The notes: generated by a model from the sequence alone, not told the origin. A DNA stretch of 64,000 bases from an uncultured Chloroflexia bacterium (GCA_963720755.1 CAVRGP010000011.1:480001-544000); one strand, 5' to 3'; counted from the stretch's first letter, positions 11,689 through 54,149 are shown. Numbers and translations: made by a program.

Positions 11689-11780
11689 GGAGAGGTCGCA
11701 TAGAGGTCTAGTGCAGCGGTTTGCTAAACCGCCATGTGGGGTAACCTGCATCGAGGGTTCGAATCCCTCCCTCTCCGCCA
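11689..11780 (+). tRNA. tRNA-Ser(GCT)
   Basis: GGAGAGG/CCTCTCC acceptor stem, GCGGT-TTGCTAA-ACCGC anticodon arm, long variable arm, CCA end. Confidence 0.95.
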
Positions 11781-11849
11781 TATTCACGCTCAGATCGAGC
11801 CCTGACGGCCCTCCTTCGGGATCCCCGCGTCGTCGTCCGGCGGACCACT

Positions 11850-11865
11850 TGACGCCCAATCTGAC
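11850..11865 (+). repeat. Putative integrase arm-type site, left (TGACGCCCAATCTGAC)
   Basis: Identical 16-mer at 13920-13935; tandem TGAC units with 12-bp period. Confidence 0.6.
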
Positions 11866-11977
11866 CACCAATAGGCCGTCGCGCCGCATCGCGGGCAGTC
11901 GGCCCGTGGCGACTCTGGCCGGGGGACGAGGGCCATATCGAGGCGGCGCTCCTGTCGATCCCGGGAGCGCGTCTGAC

Positions 11978-12306
11978 GTGAAGCCGATCCTCGTCGTCCG
12001 GATCCCCGAGGTCGGCGAGGTCCGGTGGATCCGGTCGGCTGTCGGACCTTCCGTCCGGCTCCGGGATCGGCGAACCGGACCTTCGCGTCGATCCGGGCGA
12101 TCGAACGGGCGATGATCGACCGCTGCCGACGGGAAGCCTCCCCGAAGGAGCAGATCGAGGCCCTCCTCGCCGCGTTCCCGGGCTCGTCCGTCGGGGTCCT
12201 GACCGACGACTTCTCCGAAGCTCCGAAGCCGACGTATGCCGGCCGCTGGCAGAGCCGATGGGGCGCCACGCGCCGGCGAGTCCCTACGAGCCGATGGCGC
12301 GGGTGA
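11978..12306 (+). pseudogene. Probable degraded or frameshifted phage/plasmid-type small gene
   Basis: GTG-KPILVVRIPEVGEVRWI in one frame appears to continue as ...IERAMIDRCRREASPKEQIEALLAAFPG...EAPKPTYAGRWQSRWG in another. Confidence 0.3.
12214..12282 (+). repeat. Direct repeat copy 1 flanking the membrane-protein cassette
   Basis: TCCGAAGCTCCGAAGCCGACGTATGCCGGCCGCTGGCAGAGCCGATGGGGCG...CCACGCGCCGGCGAGTC. Confidence 0.9.
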
Positions 12307-12694
12307 CGCCGTAGCCGATCAGAGCCACCATCAGGAGCAGCGCGCCGAGGAGCGGGATCATCACCATCAGGATGGTCGAATTCAGGACGTCTCGATCGAG
12401 CCGTTCGATCTCTTCACTGTCCGCACCCGCCGCCGCTCGTCGAGCGCGCGCACGAGTCCGCCAGACGGCCGCAATGACAATGGCGACGACGAACACGAGG
12501 GCGGGAATGTTCACGAGCGGGTTCGAGCCCACATTCGTGGCCAGTGAGATTACAGCGAAGCCCCCACCAATGATGATCGGAGCCGCCATCAGTGCCGCCA
12601 GTCGCTGGTCGCCGCGCATGACACCAACGAACCCTACGATAAACAACGCCATCGATACGACGACGATGGGGACGAAGAGATCCTTGCCGTCCAT
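12284..12694 (-). CDS. Hypothetical membrane protein (about 4 TM)
   Basis: 136-aa hydrophobic ORF with visibly more AT-rich codons; candidate own promoter TTGTCT-17-CACACT 7 nt before the ATG. Confidence 0.7.
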   Translation of the reverse strand: MDGKDLFVPIVVVSMALFIVGFVGVMRGDQRLAALMAAPIIIGGGFAVISLATNVGSNPLVNIPALVFVVAIVIAAVWRTRARARRAAAGADSEEIERLDRDVLNSTILMVMIPLLGALLLMVALIGYGVTRAIGS

Positions 12695-12739
12695 GGTCGG
12701 CAGTGTGCCCTCGCGGACGTCAAGAGACAAGGTCGGTCG

Positions 12740-12823
12740 TCCGAAGCTCCGAAGCCGACGTATGACGGCCGCTGGCAGAGCCGATGGGGCGGGCAGCTAC
12801 CAAGCGCCACGCGCCGGTGAGTC
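12740..12823 (+). repeat. Direct repeat copy 2 (15-nt insertion, 2 substitutions)
   Basis: Matches 12214-12282 with an extra GGCAGCTACCAAGCG. Confidence 0.9.
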
Positions 12824-12978
12824 GCAGCTAACCGGGGCCCTGTAGGCTGTCAGGGGCGATCCTCGCCGGACGGACCGGCGGGCGTCAGGAGGGAGTCGAT
12901 CCGGTCGACCCGACGGGCCTCATCACGGCCCTGATCGGCGTCGTCGACCGGGCCTTCGGGCGGCGACAGCGGATCCGC

Positions 12979-13278
12979 ATGCGCGCCGACACGGCGGAGC
13001 GGATGCTCGCGTCGTTCTACCCGTACGACGACGCCTCGACGCTGATCACCCGCTACGGGCTGATCCTCGTCTACAACGGCGGCCCGGGGCGGGTGACGAT
13101 CAATGAGGCCGGGTGGGAGGCGAAGGATGGGAGCCGTGTCGAGGCGTTCGTCCGACACGAGAGGACGATCGAACCGGGGAGCCCGGAGTTCGAGGCGACC
13201 GGCGACGCGACGGCGATCGTGAAGGCGCACGACGAACACGGCGGGCTCGTCCGTATGTACGTCCCTCCTCGCGGGTGA
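12979..13278 (+). CDS. Hypothetical protein (islet cargo, possibly a fragment)
   Basis: 99 aa with protein-like composition and GC-rich third positions; family not recognised. Confidence 0.5.
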   Translation: MRADTAERMLASFYPYDDASTLITRYGLILVYNGGPGRVTINEAGWEAKDGSRVEAFVRHERTIEPGSPEFEATGDATAIVKAHDEHGGLVRMYVPPRG

Positions 13279-13366
13279 CGAGAAGCCGCGCCGTCGAGAT
13301 CTCCCGGGCGACTGGATCGAGAAGGTCCGGGCCCTAGCCGAGAAGGACCGCCGACGGCGACGGTAG

Positions 13367-13882
13367 CTAGTCGTCGAGTTCCTTCATCGCCTCGTCGGGC
13401 GTGCCGATCGACAGGCGGACCCCGAAGCTCCCGCGATCGCCTCCGCCTCGATCCCACCCGCCGCTGACACTCGCCCGACAGGCCGCGACCTTCCCGTCCG
13501 CCGCAAGCCGGTCGATCACCGGCCGGTAGGCGACGGCGTTCTCCCGGGACAGGTAGCCGATCGTCGCGCCGTCACCGTTCGGTGCGACAAGGAGGACTCG
13601 GACGGCGTTCACGTCATAGGGGTTCGACGGCTCTAGTAGGAGGATCGCCGTGTGATCTCGGATCTTCGGCCCGTCGATCGTGCGCCCTCCCGCGAGCCGC
13701 TCGAGGGAGCCCTGATAGTGCGACTCGCCGACGACGTCGACCATCTTCGGGGTCGGTTCGAACAGGACCGCCGGGAGGCTAGTCGAGAAGCTCGCCGAGC
13801 TATCCGGCCATGACGTGATCGGGCCGGGCGGAGGCCACGACACTTGCGGAGTTCCACCGAGAAGTCGCTTCAGGAAGCCCAT
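13367..13882 (-). CDS. HIRAN-domain protein
   Basis: VVGESHYQ, LLLEPSNPYDVNAVRV and IGYLSRE motifs; GGAGG RBS. Confidence 0.8.
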   Translation of the reverse strand: MGFLKRLLGGTPQVSWPPPGPITSWPDSSASFSTSLPAVLFEPTPKMVDVVGESHYQGSLERLAGGRTIDGPKIRDHTAILLLEPSNPYDVNAVRVLLVAPNGDGATIGYLSRENAVAYRPVIDRLAADGKVAACRASVSGGWDRGGGDRGSFGVRLSIGTPDEAMKELDD

Positions 13883-13919
13883 GCCGCCCCTCCGTGCCCA
13901 TGAGCGAGAGCGTCCGCCC

Positions 13920-13935
13920 TGACGCCCAATCTGAC
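13920..13935 (+). repeat. Putative integrase arm-type site, right
   Basis: TGACGCCCAATCTGAC(GCCC), about 127 bp before the attR core. Confidence 0.6.
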
Positions 13936-14046
13936 GCCCGAACCGGCGAACGTCAACGGACAGGAGCGGACGGATAGCGGCCCGGAAGCCCGTCGATTAC
14001 ACTCCGGCGGACGTTGGAGGACGCGGAAAGACGGGCGGTAGCCGAG

Positions 14047-14106
14047 TTGCTAAACCGCCATGTGGGGTAACCTGCATCGAGGGTTCGAATCCCTCCCTCT
14101 CCGCCA
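14047..14106 (+). repeat. attR: duplicated 3' half of tRNA-Ser(GCT)
   Basis: Identical to 11721-11780; lacks the 5' half of the tRNA. Confidence 0.9.
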
Positions 14107-14123: not shown

Positions 14124-14199
14124 GCGCCCGTAGCTCAGTGGATAGAGCGTTAGGTTGCGGACCTAAAGGTCGTGGGTTCGAGTCCCGCCGGGCGCGCCA
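14124..14199 (+). tRNA. tRNA-Arg(GCG)
   Basis: GCGCCCG/CGGGCGC acceptor stem, TTAGG-TTGCGGA-CCTAA anticodon arm, A20 in the D loop, CCA end. Confidence 0.93.
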
Positions 14200-14247
14200 A
14201 GACCGCAACGTCGCCGCCGCCTGACCCACGCCGGCTACACTTCCGCC

Positions 14248-15114
14248 GTGCGGACGTTGACGACGCTGCTCGACGTACCGATCCGGTTCGATGTGGGCGA
14301 CAGCGTGACCCATGCACCGATGGTCGATGCGCGGGTCGCCGGGCAAAGCACCCGGATGATCCTCGATACCGGTTCGACCGATCACGTGTTGACGATCGAC
14401 CTCGTTCGTGCCGCGGGTCTCCCGCACCGCCCCGACGTACCCGGCACGGACCACGCTGGCGCCCAGGTGGATTCATGGTTCGTCGGTGACACCGGCGCCG
14501 AGATCGACGGGACCGGGCTCGCGCTCCACGACGTCGTCGCGATCACCGGGCCGGAACCGTTCGCGGGATGGGGCGTGGGAGGGTTCCTGAGCCCGCAGCA
14601 CCTCCATCCGACTGCACATGCGGTGATCGATCTCGTCGAGGACCGGCTGGTCCTCATCGACGGAACGGAGGCCGATCTCGTTGCGTGGCTCCGAACACGT
14701 ATGCCGGACCAGGACGTCCTCGAGCTCGAGCGCGATCCCGGCGAGGGGACGCCCGTGGTCCCGGCGGCGATCGAGCCGTTTGCGCCCGTCGCCGCCATGC
14801 TCAATACCGGTGGCCGCGGGACCGAGTTCGCGGCCGCTGCCGTCCCGGGTCTGGTCGGCTCACCGTCGGCCGATGCGGGCAAAGGCGTCGGCGGCGCTCC
14901 AGTGCTCGGTACCGTCGTCGAAGACCGCGTCCTCCGCGTGGGTGGGGCGCGACTGCCTGTCGGCACGCTCCTTATCCGGGACGAGATCGACACGATGCTG
15001 GGGCTGATCGGGATGGACGTCCTCCGCGGCACCGTGCTCGTCGTCGGCGCGGACCGATCTCGCCCGGTCCGGTGGTCGGTGCCCTCAGACCGTCTATCGG
15101 ACGGCGGCACCTGA
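14248..15114 (+). CDS. Two-domain retropepsin-like aspartic protease family protein
   Basis: MILDTGS...GGFLS and AMLNTGG...GLIGMDVL; TACACT -10 box 6 nt before the GTG. Confidence 0.8.
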   Translation: MRTLTTLLDVPIRFDVGDSVTHAPMVDARVAGQSTRMILDTGSTDHVLTIDLVRAAGLPHRPDVPGTDHAGAQVDSWFVGDTGAEIDGTGLALHDVVAITGPEPFAGWGVGGFLSPQHLHPTAHAVIDLVEDRLVLIDGTEADLVAWLRTRMPDQDVLELERDPGEGTPVVPAAIEPFAPVAAMLNTGGRGTEFAAAAVPGLVGSPSADAGKGVGGAPVLGTVVEDRVLRVGGARLPVGTLLIRDEIDTMLGLIGMDVLRGTVLVVGADRSRPVRWSVPSDRLSDGGT

Positions 15115-50672: not shown

Positions 50673-53600
50673 ATGCTGTCTGCTGAGTCTTTGACTCGCG
50701 CCCGGACCCCATCGGGTCGCATCTCGTATGCCCACATCGATCGCAAGGTCGACGGGATCAGTTACGAGAAGTTCGAGATCCCCAACCTGATCGAGCTGCA
50801 GCTCGACTCGTTTGCCTGGTTCGTCGAGCACGGCCTGCGGGACCTGCTTGATGAGATCAGTCCGATCAAGGACTTCACGGGCAAGGTCATGGAGCTCGAA
50901 TTCCTTGACTACGAGTTCGGCGCTCCGAAGTACTCCGAGGAGGAATGCCGGACGAAGGACCTGACGTTCAGCAAGCCGCTCTACGTCAACGTCGAACTCC
51001 TGATCAAGGAAACCGGCGAGATCCAGCGCCAGCGGGTGTACATGGGCGACTACCCGTGGATGACCGACCAGGGGACCTTCGTCATCAACGGCGCTGAGCG
51101 TGTCGTCGTCAGCCAGTTGGTCCGCTCACCGGGCGTCTACTACAGCGAGACGGAGGACCCGGCATCCGGCCGGATGCTCTTCAGCGCGAAGGTCATCCCG
51201 AACCGAGGCGCCTGGCTGGAGTTCGAGACCAACAACAAGGACCAGCTCTGGGTCAAGGTGGATCGCAAGCGCAAGATCGCGGCGACGACCCTGCTCCGCG
51301 CCGTCGGGTACGAAGAGAACGACGAGATCGCAGCGCTGTTCAGCCCGGTCGATGTCGACCTGGAGCATCCGTATATCGCCGCAACGCTGGACAAGGACCT
51401 GACCCACACCCAGGGCGAGGCCCTGATCGAGGTCTACAAGAAGCTTCGGCCCGGCGATCCGCCCACCGGCGACAATGCCCGCCAGCTGGTCGAGAGCCTG
51501 TTCTTCAACTTCCGGCGCTACGACCTCGGCCGGGTCGGCCGGTACAAGTTCAACAAGAAGCTGGATTCGGTGGCCGGGCGGCTCAACATCGAACTGCCGC
51601 GTGAGGGCCGGACGATCACCCGCGAGGACATCGCGGCGATCGTCGGACATCTCATCGAATGCAACCGGGGACTGCACCCGAAGGACGACATCGACCATCT
51701 CGGCAACCGCCGGATCCGGGCCAACGGCGAGCTGATCCAGAACGCGTTCCGGATCGGCCTGCTCCGCATGGAGCGCGTCGTCCGTGAGCGGATGACGATC
51801 CAGGAACTGGACAAGGCGACCCCGAATGCCCTGATCAACATCCGGCCGGTCGTCGCCGCGATGAAGGAATTCTTCGGTGGCAGCCAGCTCAGCCAGTTCA
51901 TGGACCAGACCAACCCGCTCGCCGAGCTGACCAGCAAGCGTCGCCTGTCGGCCCTCGGACCGGGTGGCCTGTCCCGCGAGCGAGCCGGTTTCGACGTCCG
52001 AGACGTCCACCACAGCCACTACGGCCGGATCTGCCCGATCGAGACGCCGGAAGGTCCGAACATCGGCCTGATCGGCTCGCTTGCGACCTATGGTCGGATC
52101 AACAGCTACGGCTTCATCGAAACGCCGTACCGCCGGGTCAAGCGAACCGTCAGTTACGAGGATGCGGACCTCACCCGGTACGAGGCCGGAGACGACCTCG
52201 TGACGAAGAGTGGGGACGTGGTCCTCGCGGCGGGCAAGTCGTTCGACGCGAAGGCCGTGGCGGAACTCAAGAAGCAGAAGGCCCGGGCATTCCCGATCCG
52301 TCCGGTCGTGACCGACGAGATCCATTACATGCCGGCCGATGAGGAAGAGGAGCACGTCGTCGCCCAGGCCAATGCGCCGCTCGACGACGAGGGTCACTTC
52401 ACCGCTGAGCGGATCCCGTCGCGCTATCGCGACACGTTCCCGGAGGCACGCGCCAGCCAGATCGAATACATGGATGTATCCCCGAAACAGGTCGTTTCGG
52501 TGGCCACGGCGCTCATCCCGTTCCTCGAGCACGACGACGCCAACCGGGCCCTGATGGGTTCGAACATGCAGCGCCAGGCAGTCCCACTGCTCGAACCCGA
52601 ATCGCCGATCGTCGGCACGGGGATGGAGGAGCGGGCGGCTCGAGACTCCGGCCAGGTCCTCGTCGCCAAGCGCGGCGGGCTGATCACCAGCGTCACGGCG
52701 GAGCGGATCCACATCGAGACCGATGCCGGCGAACTCGACGAGTACAAGCTGCTGAAGTTCGTGCGCAGCAACCAGGGCACGTGCATCAATCAACGCCCCA
52801 TCGTCAACGTCGGTGATCGGGTGGCGGACGGTCAGCCGTTGGCCGACTCCAGCTCGACCCAGCTGGGCGAGCTCGCGCTCGGGCGCAACATCCTGGTCGC
52901 GTTCATGAGCTGGGAGGGCGGCAACTACGAGGACGCCATCGTCATCAGCGATCGCCTCGTCCGCGACGACCTCTTCACCAGCATCCACATCGAGAAGCAC
53001 GAGATGGAGTCGCGGGACACCAAGCTCGGCCCCGAAGAGATCACCCGCGACATCCCCAACGTCGGCGAGGAGTCCCTCAAGGACCTCGACGAGGAAGGGA
53101 TCGTCTACATCGGGGCGGAAGTCCGGCCCGGTGACATCCTCGTCGGCAAGATCACGCCGAAGGGCGAGACCGAGCTGACCGCCGAGGAGCGCCTCCTGCG
53201 GGCCATCTTCGGCGAGAAGGCTCGCGAGGTGAAGGACAGTTCGCTGCGCCTGCCCCACGGGGAGCGCGGCAAGGTCGTCGAGGTCCGCGAGTTCCGCCGA
53301 GAGCTGAACGACGACCTGCAGCCCGGCGTCAATCGACTCGTCCGGGTGTCGGTCGCCCAGAAGCGCAAGATCAGCGTCGGCGACAAGATGGCCGGCCGCC
53401 ACGGCAACAAGGGGGTCATCGCCAAGATCCTGCCGGCCGAGGACATGCCCTTCCTCCCGGATGGGACCCCGGTCGACATCATCCTCAATCCACTCGGCGT
53501 GCCGAGCCGGATGAATATCGGCCAGATCCTCGAGACCCACCTTGGCTGGGCGCTCCACGCCAAGGGCCTGAAGGCCGCCACGGCGGTGTTCGACGGCGCC

Positions 53601-54149
53601 ACCGAGCACGACATCCGGACCGAGCTCCTCGAAGCCGGCCTGCCCGAGAATGGCAAGACCGAACTCCGGGATGGCCGGACCGGTGAATCGTTCGACCGCC
53701 CGATCACCGTCGGCTACATCTACATGCTCAAGCTCCACCACCTCGTCGAGGACAAGATCCACGCCCGATCCACTGGTCCGTACAGCCTCATCACCCAGCA
53801 GCCGCTCGGTGGCAAGGCCCAGTTCGGCGGCCAGCGGTTCGGTGAGATGGAGGTCTGGGCCCTGGAGGCGTACGGCGCGGCCAACATCCTTCAGGAACTG
53901 CTGACCGTGAAGTCGGATGACGTCCTTGGCCGGGTCCAGACCTACGAAGCCATCGTCAAGGGCGAGGAGATCCAGCCACCACGCGTCCCCGAATCGTTCA
54001 AGGTCCTCATCAAGGAATTGCGGAGCCTCGGTCTCAATGCCGAGATCCTCGATCCCAACGACGAGGAGATCCCACTCGCGGAGGACGATGCCTCCGGCTA
54101 CCTGTTGCCAGATCTCGGCGGGATCAATCTCGCCGGGTTCGAGGACTGA
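50673..54149 (+). CDS. rpoB: RNA polymerase beta subunit
   Basis: [36 protein letters not shown] and GGQRFGEME motifs. Confidence 0.99.

What the first reader, a model, noticed from the sequence alone, without database searches (positions are those of the whole stretch)
14124..14199. tRNA-Arg with a GCG anticodon at the locus normally holding tRNA-Arg(ACG/ICG)
Seen: the anticodon loop is TT-GCG-GA with G37, and the gene starts 17 nt after the tRNA-Ser(GCT) 3' end (the attR copy). CGA codons are frequent in the window, including in tuf, rpmG and rplK. Established: most bacteria read CGU/CGC/CGA with the TadA-edited ICG tRNA, Ser(GCT)-Arg(ACG) is a widely conserved tRNA pair, and GCG+UCG decoding is known mainly from tadA-lacking lineages. 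Inference: an A34-to-G switch (with A37-to-G, creating the G36G37 TrmD substrate) made TadA catalysis dispensable, matching the HAV TadA 6.8 kb away. This predicts a tRNA-Arg(TCG) elsewhere in the genome.
Basis: partly seen in the sequence, partly recalled or inferred. Interest (0 to 1): 0.75.

Follow-up and report, generated by a model that had tools for sequence, protein, structure and literature searches.

The report
Inosine-free arginine tRNA in Chloroflexota
This is a genuine arginine tRNA with a G-starting anticodon, the usual way this bacterial phylum reads CGU/CGC codons without inosine, and its most unusual companion is a conserved but catalytically dead copy of the inosine-making enzyme nearby.

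Summary
The tRNA-Arg(GCG) at 14124-14199 is real (ARAGORN; Rfam tRNA 71.6 bits). The assembly (93.6% complete) holds no tRNA-Arg(ACG), and its only TadA-like gene reads HAV instead of HAE.

It is not a local oddity. In a 201-genome sample of the class Limnocylindria, families f1, f2 and f4 carry GCG in 43/60, 7/7 and 60/66 genomes and ACG in 0/133. The sister clade f3 carries ACG (40/66) and a normal HAE TadA (50/66). Across 251 Chloroflexota, a GCG pattern matched 135 genomes and an ACG pattern 10.

The predicted tRNA-Arg(TCG) is missing from this assembly. It is present in congeners and in a closed relative, which has GCG, TCG, CCG, CCT and TCT and no ACG.

GCG/UCG/CCG decoding without TadA is already described for Mollicutes, Thermotogae, Spirochaetes and CPR bacteria, so the tRNA is a new member of a known kind.

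The less ordinary part is the HAV TadA-like gene:
- it sits at the ancestral tadA locus, upstream of tRNA-Ser(CGA);
- it forms one clade covering f1 and f4;
- it is under purifying selection (median dN/dS 0.22);
- it is lost only in the streamlined family f2.

The timing and the A37-to-G claim, and the premise of 'ICG-using Chloroflexota', do not.

The parts
14124..14199 (+). tRNA-Arg(GCG). The anticodon is at 14157-14159, G37 at 14160, and CCA is encoded.
   Evidence: ARAGORN. Rfam RF00005 at 71.6 bits. 95-100% identical, with GCG, in all 29 relatives' loci fetched. RNA-library contigs read the same letters.
11689..11780 (+). tRNA-Ser(GCT), the usual upstream neighbour of the Arg gene. Here it is separated from it by an insertion.
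   Evidence: ARAGORN. In relatives the two genes lie roughly 10-100 nt apart.
11781..14046 (.). 2266-nt insertion between the Ser and Arg genes. It holds no integrase; one ORF (13367-13882, minus strand) has a HIRAN domain.
   Evidence: Direct repeat D1. Pfam scan of 8 ORFs in the insert. The insertion is absent from all 29 relatives' loci.
14047..14106 (+). Exact 60-nt duplicate of the 3' end of tRNA-Ser(GCT), att-like. It ends 17 nt before the Arg gene.
   Evidence: the repeat finder D1, 100% identity, spacing 2326 nt.
20966..21406 (+). TadA-like gene (146 aa). The catalytic Glu is replaced by Val (HAV; the Val codon is at 21125-21127), and the zinc ligands H52, C82 and C85 are kept.
   Evidence: Translation. 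NCBIfam TadA 113.4 bits, below the cut-off of 150. It is the only PF14437 hit in the genome. The AF2 model (pLDDT 95.3) matches solved TadA structures at TM 0.91-0.92. Median dN/dS is 0.22.
21455..21540 (+). tRNA-Ser(CGA) directly downstream of the TadA-like gene. This is the conserved marker of the ancestral tadA locus.
   Evidence: ARAGORN. The same order is seen in 76 of 79 HAV loci, in 9 of 9 f4 loci, and after HAE tadA genes of five other families.
21695..21782 (+). tRNA-Ser(GGA), the second member of the conserved tadA-Ser-Ser block.
   Evidence: ARAGORN.

Best explanation
**Function.** The gene encodes a working tRNA-Arg(GCG). It reads CGC by Watson-Crick pairing and CGU by G:U wobble. 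It belongs to an inosine-free, three-tRNA way of decoding CGN codons. In this scheme GCG reads CGU and CGC, UCG reads CGA (and CGG), and CCG reads CGG. CGC is the preferred Arg codon in tuf, so this is a major isoacceptor.

**Origin.** The state was inherited, not recently acquired. An ancestor of three Limnocylindria families (f4, f1 and f2) replaced the ancestral tRNA-Arg(ACG)/TadA (I34) system. The sister clade f3/f5 keeps that system.

**Effect on TadA.** With no A34 substrate left, TadA catalysis became dispensable. At the ancestral tadA locus the gene lost its proton-shuttle Glu (HAE to HAV) once and diverged. It was then kept under purifying selection in f1 and f4, and deleted in the streamlined f2.

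**Wider pattern.** The same kind of switch has happened repeatedly in Chloroflexota, where GCG is now the common state.

**Shown:**
- the gene and its conservation;
- the distribution of ACG and GCG, and of HAE, HAV and no TadA;
- the synteny of the tadA locus;
- purifying selection on the HAV gene.

**Inferred:**
- the decoding roles, from standard wobble rules;
- absence of inosine;
- m1G37 made by TrmD;
- the direction and order of the events;
- any present function of the HAV protein.
For: **The gene**
- ARAGORN and Rfam both call it. A D-loop A at the place of the Arg identity base A20, together with C35 and G36, can be read from the sequence.
- RNA-library contigs from three studies cover it with no difference at 14157.

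**This genome**
- The Arg tRNAs found are GCG, TCT, CCT and a disrupted CCG. There is no ACG.
- The only TadA-like gene is the HAV one; the other CDA-fold hit lies in a 388-aa frame that I take, by its length, for RibD-like.
- TrmD is present.
- CGC is 27.6, CGT 7.5, CGA 11.0 and CGG 30.9 per 1000 codons. tuf uses CGC for 17 of its 24 Arg codons.

**Class sample, 201 genomes**

| Family | ACG | GCG | HAV | HAE |
|---|---|---|---|---|
| f1 | 0/60 | 43/60 | 49/60 | 10/60 (mostly other deaminases) |
| f2 | 0/7 | 7/7 | 0/7 | 0/7 |
| f4 | 0/66 | 60/66 | 61/66 | 11/66 (mostly other deaminases) |
| f3 | 40/66 | 2/66 | 0/66 | 50/66 |

- In f2, PF14437 matched 0 of 5 genomes.

**Phylum sample, 251 genomes**
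- ACG matched 10 and GCG 135.
- HAV matched 22, all in f1 or f4.
- Canonical HAE TadA matched only in the families that hold ACG.
- 5 of 5 near-complete GCG genomes from other classes have no TadA orthologue.

**Closed relative with an HAV gene**
- Its Arg tRNAs are GCG, TCG, CCG, CCT and TCT, with no ACG among 46 tRNAs.
- A TCG tRNA was confirmed in 8 of 8 congener loci checked and in 4 of 4 f2 loci.

**Trees and selection**
- The RpoB tree gives (f5,f3) and (f4,(f2,f1)), with supports of 99-100.
- The HAV proteins form one clade (100/100) on a long stem.
- Median dN/dS is 0.22 over 4000 pairs.

**Locus**
- The order tadA then tRNA-Ser(CGA) is shared by HAV genes (76/79 and 9/9) and by HAE genes of f5, f28, f26, f61 and f56.

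**Independent replicate**
- Within genus g22, one genome (G061) has ACG plus TadA. Another (G044) has GCG and no TadA.
Against: - **Missing CGA reader.** No tRNA-Arg(TCG) is in this assembly, although CGA is 13% of Arg codons. The assembly is 93.6% complete and also holds only one CAT tRNA. I read this as an assembly gap, but that is not shown.
- **Disrupted CCG gene.** The CCG gene carries a 50-nt internal partial duplication.
- **Pattern sensitivity.** The pattern scans need a particular D-arm and variable loop. 106 of 251 phylum genomes matched neither pattern, so the counts are lower bounds and could be biased.
- **Polarity.** It rests on one single-gene quick tree (RpoB, LG+G4) and on synteny. 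The GCG tRNA core of this lineage is letter-identical to that of families in other classes. That would also fit an older, shared GCG.
- **In-place mutation not shown.** In the sister clade, ACG is not next to Ser(GCT). The GCG tRNA is more like its own genus's CCG tRNA (89%) than any ACG tRNA (at most 84%).
- **No direct RNA evidence.** There are no RNA modification data. The RNA-library evidence is contigs only, and DNA carry-over is not excluded.
Confidence: 0.8

Rival explanations
1. A point mutation A34-to-G, with A37-to-G, arose in the resident ACG gene beside tRNA-Ser(GCT), as a lineage-specific and fairly recent event matched to this genome's HAV TadA.
For: - The Ser(TGA)-Ser(GCT)-Arg slot holds ACG in G453 (f61) and GCG in G315 (f40).
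- ACG tRNAs of f28 share the acceptor stem and 84% identity with this tRNA.
- The sister clade f3 mostly has A37.
Against: - The state is fixed across three families in two orders, so it is not recent.
- 9 of 10 ACG tRNAs from other classes already have G37.
- In the sister clade f3, 9 of 10 loci put ACG about 1 kb from a TCG tRNA, and none has Ser(GCT) beside it.
- The tRNA is closer to the genus's CCG tRNA (89%).
Confidence: 0.3
2. GCG is ancestral to most of Chloroflexota, from one early switch. On this view the ACG-plus-TadA lineages (f3/f5, f9, f28, f26, f61, f19) kept or regained the inosine system secondarily. The HAV gene would then be a very old relic.
For: - GCG matched 135 of 251 genomes, in many families.
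- The 41-nt core of this tRNA is identical in f51, and differs only in the D-loop in f18 and f8.
- U32 with the GG/CC stem ends is shared by GCG tRNAs of many families.
Against: - HAE tadA genes of five families in several classes sit at the same tadA-then-Ser(CGA) locus as the HAV gene. That argues for vertical descent of an active tadA.
- ACG/HAE families are scattered among GCG families on the RpoB tree.
- A within-genus switch (G044 versus G061) shows the change is easy and recurrent.
Confidence: 0.15
3. The HAV protein is still an enzyme, using another residue as proton shuttle. Alternatively, an A34 tRNA hides in the missing 6% of the genome, so that inosine is still made.
For: - The zinc ligands and the fold are intact.
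- The gene is under purifying selection.
- The assembly is incomplete.
Against: - Val at the Glu position is invariant in the 90 full-length HAV-clade genes examined.
- Other TadA signature residues are lost in the whole clade: AHN to AHD, WRL, NH, and the C-terminal FF..R.
- No ACG matched in 0 of 133 f1, f2 and f4 genomes, nor in a closed relative.
- f2 does without the gene.
Confidence: 0.05
4. The tRNA gene is a pseudogene, a contaminant, or an assembly or base-calling error at position 34.
For: - The assembly is a 15-contig genome with 2.7% contamination.
- Its CCG tRNA gene looks mis-assembled.
Against: - The cloverleaf is perfect and scores highly.
- The anticodon is identical in 113 of 201 class genomes and in independent DNA and RNA-library contigs.
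- The gene lies on a 968-kb contig together with rRNA-operon tRNAs, tuf and rpoB.
Confidence: 0.01

Closest known systems
GCG + UCG decoding of CGN codons after loss of tadA in Mollicutes (Yokobori et al. 2013, PMC3711424; passages read)
   Same: - ACG is replaced by GCG and a UCG tRNA is present.
- Inosine is no longer needed.
- That paper also models the change as stepwise, with TadA activity relaxed before the gene is lost.
   Different: - The organisms here are free-living, 68% G+C, with 2-4 Mb genomes, not reduced low-GC parasites.
- The CCG tRNA is kept.
- The tadA descendant is not lost. It persists as a conserved HAV protein across two orders.
Phylum-wide tRNA-Arg(GCG) in place of ACG in Thermotogae and Spirochaetes (PMC8007984, passages read), and GCG/UCG/CCG in CPR bacteria and 'deeply branching bacteria' (PMC8629427, passage read, citing Rafels-Ybern 2019, which I could not read)
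   Same: The same three-tRNA, inosine-free strategy is used as a lineage-wide trait.
   Different: - Those passages do not name Chloroflexota. My full-text search for tRNA-Arg, GCG, Chloroflex and anticodon together found no paper.
- Within Chloroflexota both states coexist and have switched repeatedly, down to within a genus.
Bacterial TadA (solved structures 7cph, 2b3j, 1z3a)
   Same: - Closest by sequence (E 7e-27 to 1e-24) and by fold (TM 0.91-0.92).
- The zinc ligands are the same, and the gene is at the same locus upstream of tRNA-Ser(CGA).
   Different: - The catalytic Glu is Val.
- AHN is AHD, and the WRL, NH and C-terminal FF..R signatures are lost.
- No A34 tRNA substrate is found in the genome.
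- It scores below NCBIfam's TadA cut-off (113.4 against 150).
Eukaryotic ADAT3/Tad3, the inactive partner of ADAT2 (PMC3239186 and PMC8072771, passages read)
   Same: It is a TadA-derived protein that has lost the proton-shuttle Glu of HxE yet is conserved. That the ADAT3 residue is Val is my recollection; the passages say only that the Glu is lost.
   Different: - No active paralogue is found in this genome to pair with.
- It has no N-terminal extension (146 aa).
- It matches ADAT3 chains more weakly than TadA (E 1e-10).
- Its origin is independent.

Membership tests
Bacterial elongator tRNA-Arg | Cloverleaf that fits the tRNA covariance model | tested here: met
   Rfam RF00005 at 71.6 bits, model positions 1-71. 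ARAGORN agrees.
Bacterial elongator tRNA-Arg | Arg identity elements C35, G36/U36 and A20 (the list of elements is recalled, not from a call) | tested here: met
   Read from the sequence: anticodon GCG, and D-loop AGTGGATA with an A at the place of A20. Charging was not tested.
Inosine-free CGN decoding (GCG + UCG + CCG, no ACG, no TadA) | tRNA-Arg(GCG) present and tRNA-Arg(ACG) absent | tested here: met
   for this 93.6%-complete assembly. ACG matched 0 of 133 f1, f2 and f4 genomes. No ACG in a closed relative.
Inosine-free CGN decoding (GCG + UCG + CCG, no ACG, no TadA) | tRNA-Arg(UCG) present to read CGA | tested here: inconclusive
   Not found in this assembly by ARAGORN, Rfam or blastn. 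Present in 8 of 8 congener loci checked, in 4 of 4 f2 loci, and in the closed relative. The 10-kb surroundings of the gene in 3 congeners have no collinear match here.
Inosine-free CGN decoding (GCG + UCG + CCG, no ACG, no TadA) | tRNA-Arg(CCG) present | tested here: inconclusive
   Present at G000 C8:99837-99962, but with a 50-nt partial tandem duplication inside. It is intact in congeners.
Inosine-free CGN decoding (GCG + UCG + CCG, no ACG, no TadA) | [quoted passage not shown] | tested here: not met
   A TadA-derived gene is present and conserved, but reads HAV. The feature is met in family f2 and in 5 of 5 GCG genomes of other classes.
TadA (tRNA adenosine-34 deaminase) | CDA fold with His/Cys/Cys zinc site | tested here: met
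   H52, C82 and C85 are invariant in a 63-row alignment. The fold matches solved TadA structures at TM 0.91-0.92.
TadA (tRNA adenosine-34 deaminase) | Catalytic Glu of the HAE motif | tested here: not met
   Val in this genome and in 90 of 90 HAV-clade genes.
TadA (tRNA adenosine-34 deaminase) | A tRNA-Arg(ACG) substrate in the same genome | tested here: not met
TadA (tRNA adenosine-34 deaminase) | Score above NCBIfam's equivalog cut-off | tested here: not met
   NF008113 scores 113.4 bits against a cut-off of 150.
ADAT3-like inactive deaminase subunit | Loss of the HxE glutamate while the gene stays conserved | tested here: met
   HAV, with median dN/dS 0.22.
ADAT3-like inactive deaminase subunit | An active paralogue to form a heterodimer with | tested here: not met
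   Only one PF14437 hit in the genome. The second PF00383 hit lies in a 388-aa frame, read by its length as RibD-like.

The most novel reading that the evidence does not exclude
The HAV protein is not a decaying relic. It would be a TadA descendant kept for a non-catalytic job, a bacterial parallel to ADAT3 that arose independently.

- **Candidate roles:** binding anticodon loops, or helping to process the tRNA genes it is always encoded beside.
- **Linkage:** tRNA-Ser(CGA) lies a median 61 nt downstream. tRNA-Arg(GCG) is on the same contig in 79 genomes, by my tally of the coordinates printed, mostly 1-10 kb away.
- **Consequence for the rule:** it would be a natural exception to 'no A34 tRNA, no TadA'.
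- **Use as a system:** the clade would be a test bed with every stage available. These are ACG plus HAE (f3/f5), GCG plus HAV (f1, f4), GCG with no gene (f2), and a within-genus switch (g22).
Probability: 0.35. Interest if true: 0.65.

Novelty: new member of a known kind. Interest (0 to 1): 0.4.

Why it matters
The tRNA alone adds little. G34 arginine tRNAs in bacteria that do without inosine are already in the literature.

What the follow-up adds is scale and a natural series:
- Chloroflexota, a large free-living and often high-GC phylum, mostly decode CGN without inosine.
- The phylum has switched between the two systems repeatedly.
- In one clade every intermediate survives: active TadA with ACG, dead-but-conserved TadA with GCG, and no TadA with GCG.

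This makes two things testable with existing genomes plus ordinary biochemistry. One is the order of events when an 'essential' tRNA-modification enzyme is lost. The other is whether TadA has a second, non-catalytic role.

There is also an annotation point. These HAV genes are likely to be named tRNA adenosine deaminase by similarity, although they lack the catalytic residue and have no substrate.

Tried and rejected
- **TCG tRNA in this genome.** ARAGORN, Rfam and blastn with a congener's TCG tRNA all found none. blastn of three congeners' 10-kb TCG neighbourhoods found no collinear region. This is read as an assembly gap, not as absence.
- **Origin from tRNA similarity.** Identities of 89% to CCG, 84% to ACG and 82% to TCG are too close, over 76 nt, to decide the origin.
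- **TadA tree.** With no outgroup and a long HAV stem, it cannot say which HAE clade the HAV clade came from.
- **First RpoB tree.** It was wrong because six rows were antisense ORFs. It was redone with the ORF chosen by likeness to the window's RpoB.
- **Loose ACG pattern (TACG..GTTCRA).** It gave only coding-like hits. None coincides with a called tRNA.
- **Integrase in the insertion.** A Pfam scan of the 2.3-kb insertion found none.
- **G052 (f5) 'ACG' match.** It is a T-arm-less remnant that neither ARAGORN nor Rfam calls, so it is not counted as an ACG tRNA.
- **Laid runs.** The parts of the laid stretch without cover (13900-14046 and 14215-14256) allow no conclusion. Small-share runs were not used for habitat.
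- **Earlier findings.** The search of earlier findings returned nothing for this place.
- **Literature.** Rafels-Ybern et al. 2019 was not in the library, so I could not see whether it names Chloroflexi. Diwan & Agashe 2018 does not mention Chloroflexi in its main text, and I did not look at its supplements. No paper on a bacterial Glu-less TadA turned up in the listing; I judged it from titles and abstract starts and opened none of the papers for this.
- **No complex prediction.** A TadA homodimer would pass by likeness to solved structures and would not change my odds.

Full report
ARAGORN finds tRNA-Arg(gcg) at 14124-14199 on the + strand. Rfam's tRNA model gives 71.6 bits over its full length. 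The letters show the loop TT-GCG-GA, with G34 at 14157 and G37 at 14160, a D-loop with an A at the place of A20, and an encoded CCA. An exact 60-nt copy of the 3' end of tRNA-Ser(GCT) (11721-11780) lies at 14047-14106, so the Arg gene begins 17 nt after it. The 2266 nt between the two copies hold no integrase; one ORF has a HIRAN domain. In all 29 relatives' loci fetched, tRNA-Ser(GCT) and tRNA-Arg(GCG) are direct neighbours without this insertion, and the Arg gene is 95-100% identical.

**The rest of this genome.** The window lies in a 3.01-Mb, 15-contig assembly, 93.6% complete by the tool's figure.
- ARAGORN finds 52 tRNAs and Rfam 47.
- The arginine tRNAs are GCG, TCT and CCT. A CCG gene on contig 8 carries a 50-nt partial tandem duplication that hides it from ARAGORN.
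- There is no ACG and no TCG. blastn with a congener's TCG tRNA finds nothing.
- Only one CAT tRNA is present, so tRNAs are clearly missing from the assembly.
- CGA is 11.0 per 1000 codons, 13% of Arg codons, so a CGA reader must exist.
- In tuf the Arg codons are CGC 17, CGG 6, CGA 1 and CGT 0. The GCG tRNA therefore reads the preferred codon by Watson-Crick pairing.
- The only TadA-like gene is at 20966-21406 and reads TAHAVIV and EPCSMC. The other CDA-fold hit lies in a 388-aa frame that I take, by its length, for RibD-like.
- TrmD is present.

**Who else has this.** Record titles of the closest TadA-like loci place the organism in Chloroflexota, class Limnocylindria. I scanned genomes with a pattern for the D-arm, anticodon arm and variable loop of Arg tRNAs, with ACG or GCG fixed, and with back-translated patterns for HAV or HAE followed by EPCxMC.

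Class sample, 200 genomes plus this one:

| Family | ACG | GCG | HAV | HAE |
|---|---|---|---|---|
| f1 (own) | 0/60 | 43/60 | 49/60 | 10/60 |
| f2 (1.0-1.4 Mb genomes) | 0/7 | 7/7 | 0/7 | 0/7 |
| f4 | 0/66 | 60/66 | 61/66 | 11/66 |
| f3 | 40/66 | 2/66 | 0/66 | 50/66 |

- The f3 HAE hits have canonical TadA signatures.
- The HAE hits in f1 and f4 mostly look, by their letters, like other deaminases.
- In f2, Pfam PF14437 matched 0 of 5 genomes.

Phylum sample, 250 genomes plus this one:
- The ACG pattern matched 10 genomes and the GCG pattern 135. No genome has both.
- HAV matched 22, all in f1 or f4.
- HAE with TadA-like letters appears in the families that hold ACG: f9, f28, f26 and f61, and also in f19 and f56.
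- Five near-complete GCG genomes from other classes have no TadA orthologue. Their hits lie in 369-396-aa frames that I take for RibD-like, plus one dCMP-deaminase-like ORF.
- 106 of the 251 genomes matched neither tRNA pattern, so all these counts are lower bounds from a strict pattern.
- Some tallies include genomes the tool flags as unpublished.

**The prediction of a TCG tRNA.** Congeners hold a TCG tRNA in 8 of 8 loci checked, f2 genomes in 4 of 4, and congeners hold intact CCG genes. One closed 3.68-Mb chromosome of a relative has an HAV gene 78% identical to this one. It holds GCG, TCG, CCG, CCT and TCT. None of its 46 Rfam tRNAs coincides with any loose TACG..GTTCRA match. The 10-kb surroundings of the TCG gene in three congeners have no collinear counterpart in this assembly. 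That fits a gap rather than a loss.

**Direction and timing.** An RpoB tree has 40 rows, uses LG+G4 with a short search, and is rooted on 17 rows from other classes. It gives Limnocylindria (99) = (f5,f3) (100) + (f4,(f2,f1)) (99) (an earlier run was flawed by antisense ORFs).
- GCG is thus the state of one clade, and ACG plus HAE that of its sister.
- The HAV proteins form one clade (100/100) on a long stem, split into f4 and f1-like.
- f2 is nested within the clade, so its lack of the gene is a secondary loss.
- The HAV gene is followed on the same strand by tRNA-Ser(CGA) in 76 of 79 loci with room (median gap 61 nt) and in 9 of 9 f4 loci.
- HAE tadA genes of f5, f28 (3/3), f26, f61 and f56 have the same order; those of f3 do not (0/17). 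The HAV gene is therefore the positional orthologue of a real tadA.
- Together this favours an ancestor with ACG and active TadA, with one switch on the stem of (f4,(f1,f2)).
- Elsewhere in the phylum, ACG/HAE families are scattered among GCG families on the same tree.
- Within genus g22, one genome (G061) has CCG, TCG, ACG and TadA. Another (G044, 97% complete) has CCG, a tandem GCG-TCG pair, no ACG and no TadA. The switch is recurrent.
- An older shared GCG is not excluded. The 41-nt core of this tRNA is letter-identical in family f51 of another class.

**How the GCG gene arose is not settled.**
- The Ser(TGA)-Ser(GCT)-Arg slot holds ACG in one family (f61) and GCG in another (f40). That fits an in-place change.
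- In the sister clade f3, however, ACG sits about 1 kb from a TCG tRNA in 9 of 10 loci, and none has Ser(GCT) beside it.
- This tRNA is 89% identical to its genus's CCG tRNA and at most 84% to any ACG tRNA.
- G37 is already present in 9 of 10 ACG tRNAs from other classes. The sister clade mostly has A37. The proposed A37-to-G step can therefore be neither shown nor excluded.

**The HAV protein.**
- It is closest to solved TadA structures by sequence (7cph, E 6.8e-27; 2b3j; 1z3a).
- It is also closest by predicted fold (pLDDT 95.3; TM 0.91-0.92).
- The zinc ligands are invariant.
- Lost in the whole clade are the catalytic Glu, the Asn of AHN (now Asp), the WRL and NH motifs, and the C-terminal FF..R helix.
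- Median dN/dS over 4000 pairs is 0.22, so the gene is constrained, not decaying.
- Among the best 150 cluster representatives of a 1.84-billion-protein library, 46 carry TAHAV. All but one are at least 50% identical to the query; the exception is 43%. 92 are HAE proteins at no more than 48% identity.
- What the protein does now is unknown. My guess is a non-catalytic RNA-binding role. A new unrelated role or slow decay are the alternatives.

**Expression.** Contigs from three RNA libraries of different studies cover the tRNA. One spans 14124-14195 with no difference, and none shows a difference at 14157. These are contigs and DNA carry-over is possible, so this is a weak hint of transcription. 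It says nothing about modification.

**What is known.**
- Replacement of ACG by GCG with a UCG tRNA after loss of tadA is described for Mollicutes (PMC3711424, passages).
- 'All sequenced Thermotogae and Spirochaetes' are said to have GCG instead of ACG (PMC8007984, passage).
- CPR bacteria use GCG, UCG and CCG, and 'some deeply branching bacteria' lack wobble inosine (PMC8629427, passage, citing a 2019 paper I could not read).
- Tad3/ADAT3 lacks the Glu of HxE (PMC3239186 and PMC8072771, passages).
- My searches found no paper joining tRNA-Arg, GCG, Chloroflex and anticodon. The listing showed none on a Glu-less bacterial TadA, judged from titles and abstract starts only.

**Verdict.**
- The tRNA is a new member of a known kind and is ordinary for its phylum.
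- The premise that Chloroflexota normally use ICG is wrong for most of the phylum.
- The conserved HAV descendant of TadA at the ancestral locus is the part that deserves follow-up.

Noticed in passing
G000 contig C8:99837-99962 (outside the window): The tRNA-Arg(CCG) gene has a 50-nt partial tandem duplication. The first 57 nt of the gene are followed by a second, slightly damaged copy that carries the 3' half. ARAGORN sees it only as an 'intron'. This may be an assembly artefact or a real disruption. The gene is intact in congeners.
   Followed up: partly
window 11721-14106: Exact 60-nt direct repeats of the tRNA-Ser(GCT) 3' end bracket a 2266-nt insert. The insert has internal 52-nt repeats (12214 and 12740), a HIRAN-domain ORF (13367-13882, minus strand) and no integrase. 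It looks like the remnant of an element integrated into the tRNA, and it is absent from all 29 relatives' loci.
   Followed up: partly
L268 (G044:C26:57900-58600) versus L269 (G061:C30:82100-84600): Two species of one genus (g22, family f3) differ. One has tRNA-Arg(ACG) plus TadA. The other has a tandem tRNA-Arg(GCG)-tRNA-Arg(TCG) pair 19 nt apart, with the same D-loop, and has no ACG and no TadA. This is a recent, independent replicate of the switch.
   Followed up: partly
L261 2730-2800 (G052, family f5): A tRNA-Arg(ACG)-like sequence has acceptor, D and anticodon arms but no T-arm. Neither ARAGORN nor Rfam calls it. The genome has an HAE TadA upstream of tRNA-Ser(CGA).
   Followed up: partly
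L134-L143 (family f3 loci): The f3 Arg tRNA genes (ACG and TCG) do not encode CCA, and several have TCCGA instead of TTCGA in the T-loop. The f1, f2 and f4 genes do encode CCA.
   Followed up: no
class sample, e.g. L157-L161 (G074, G045, G194, G229, G077): 10 of 60 f1 genomes and 11 of 66 f4 genomes hold another small HAE..EPCxMC deaminase (letters like HAEVVAIRRACR..LGTF). It looks like a guanine or nucleoside deaminase rather than TadA. This genome has none. G088 (f4) has both an HAV gene and a canonical-looking HAE TadA on a 7.6-kb contig, which may be contamination.
   Followed up: no
whole assembly G000: ARAGORN finds a tRNA-SeC(tca) at C11:75899-75995, only one CAT tRNA, and no tmRNA. 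Several 90-99-nt 'tRNA' calls (Gly at C2:210744, Asp at C2:327312, Thr at C11:716538, Ala at C13:165344) are not matched by Rfam's tRNA model.
   Followed up: no
window 14248-15114 +: The ORF just downstream of the tRNA-Arg gene has a retropepsin-like aspartyl protease domain (PF13650, 34.2 bits).
   Followed up: no
RpoB, residues 492-542 of window 50673-54149: Families f2 and f3 lack about 50 residues that f1, f4 and f5 have; their matches split at 491/543. This is at odds with the RpoB tree, which puts f2 with f1. It implies two independent deletions or insertions.
   Followed up: no
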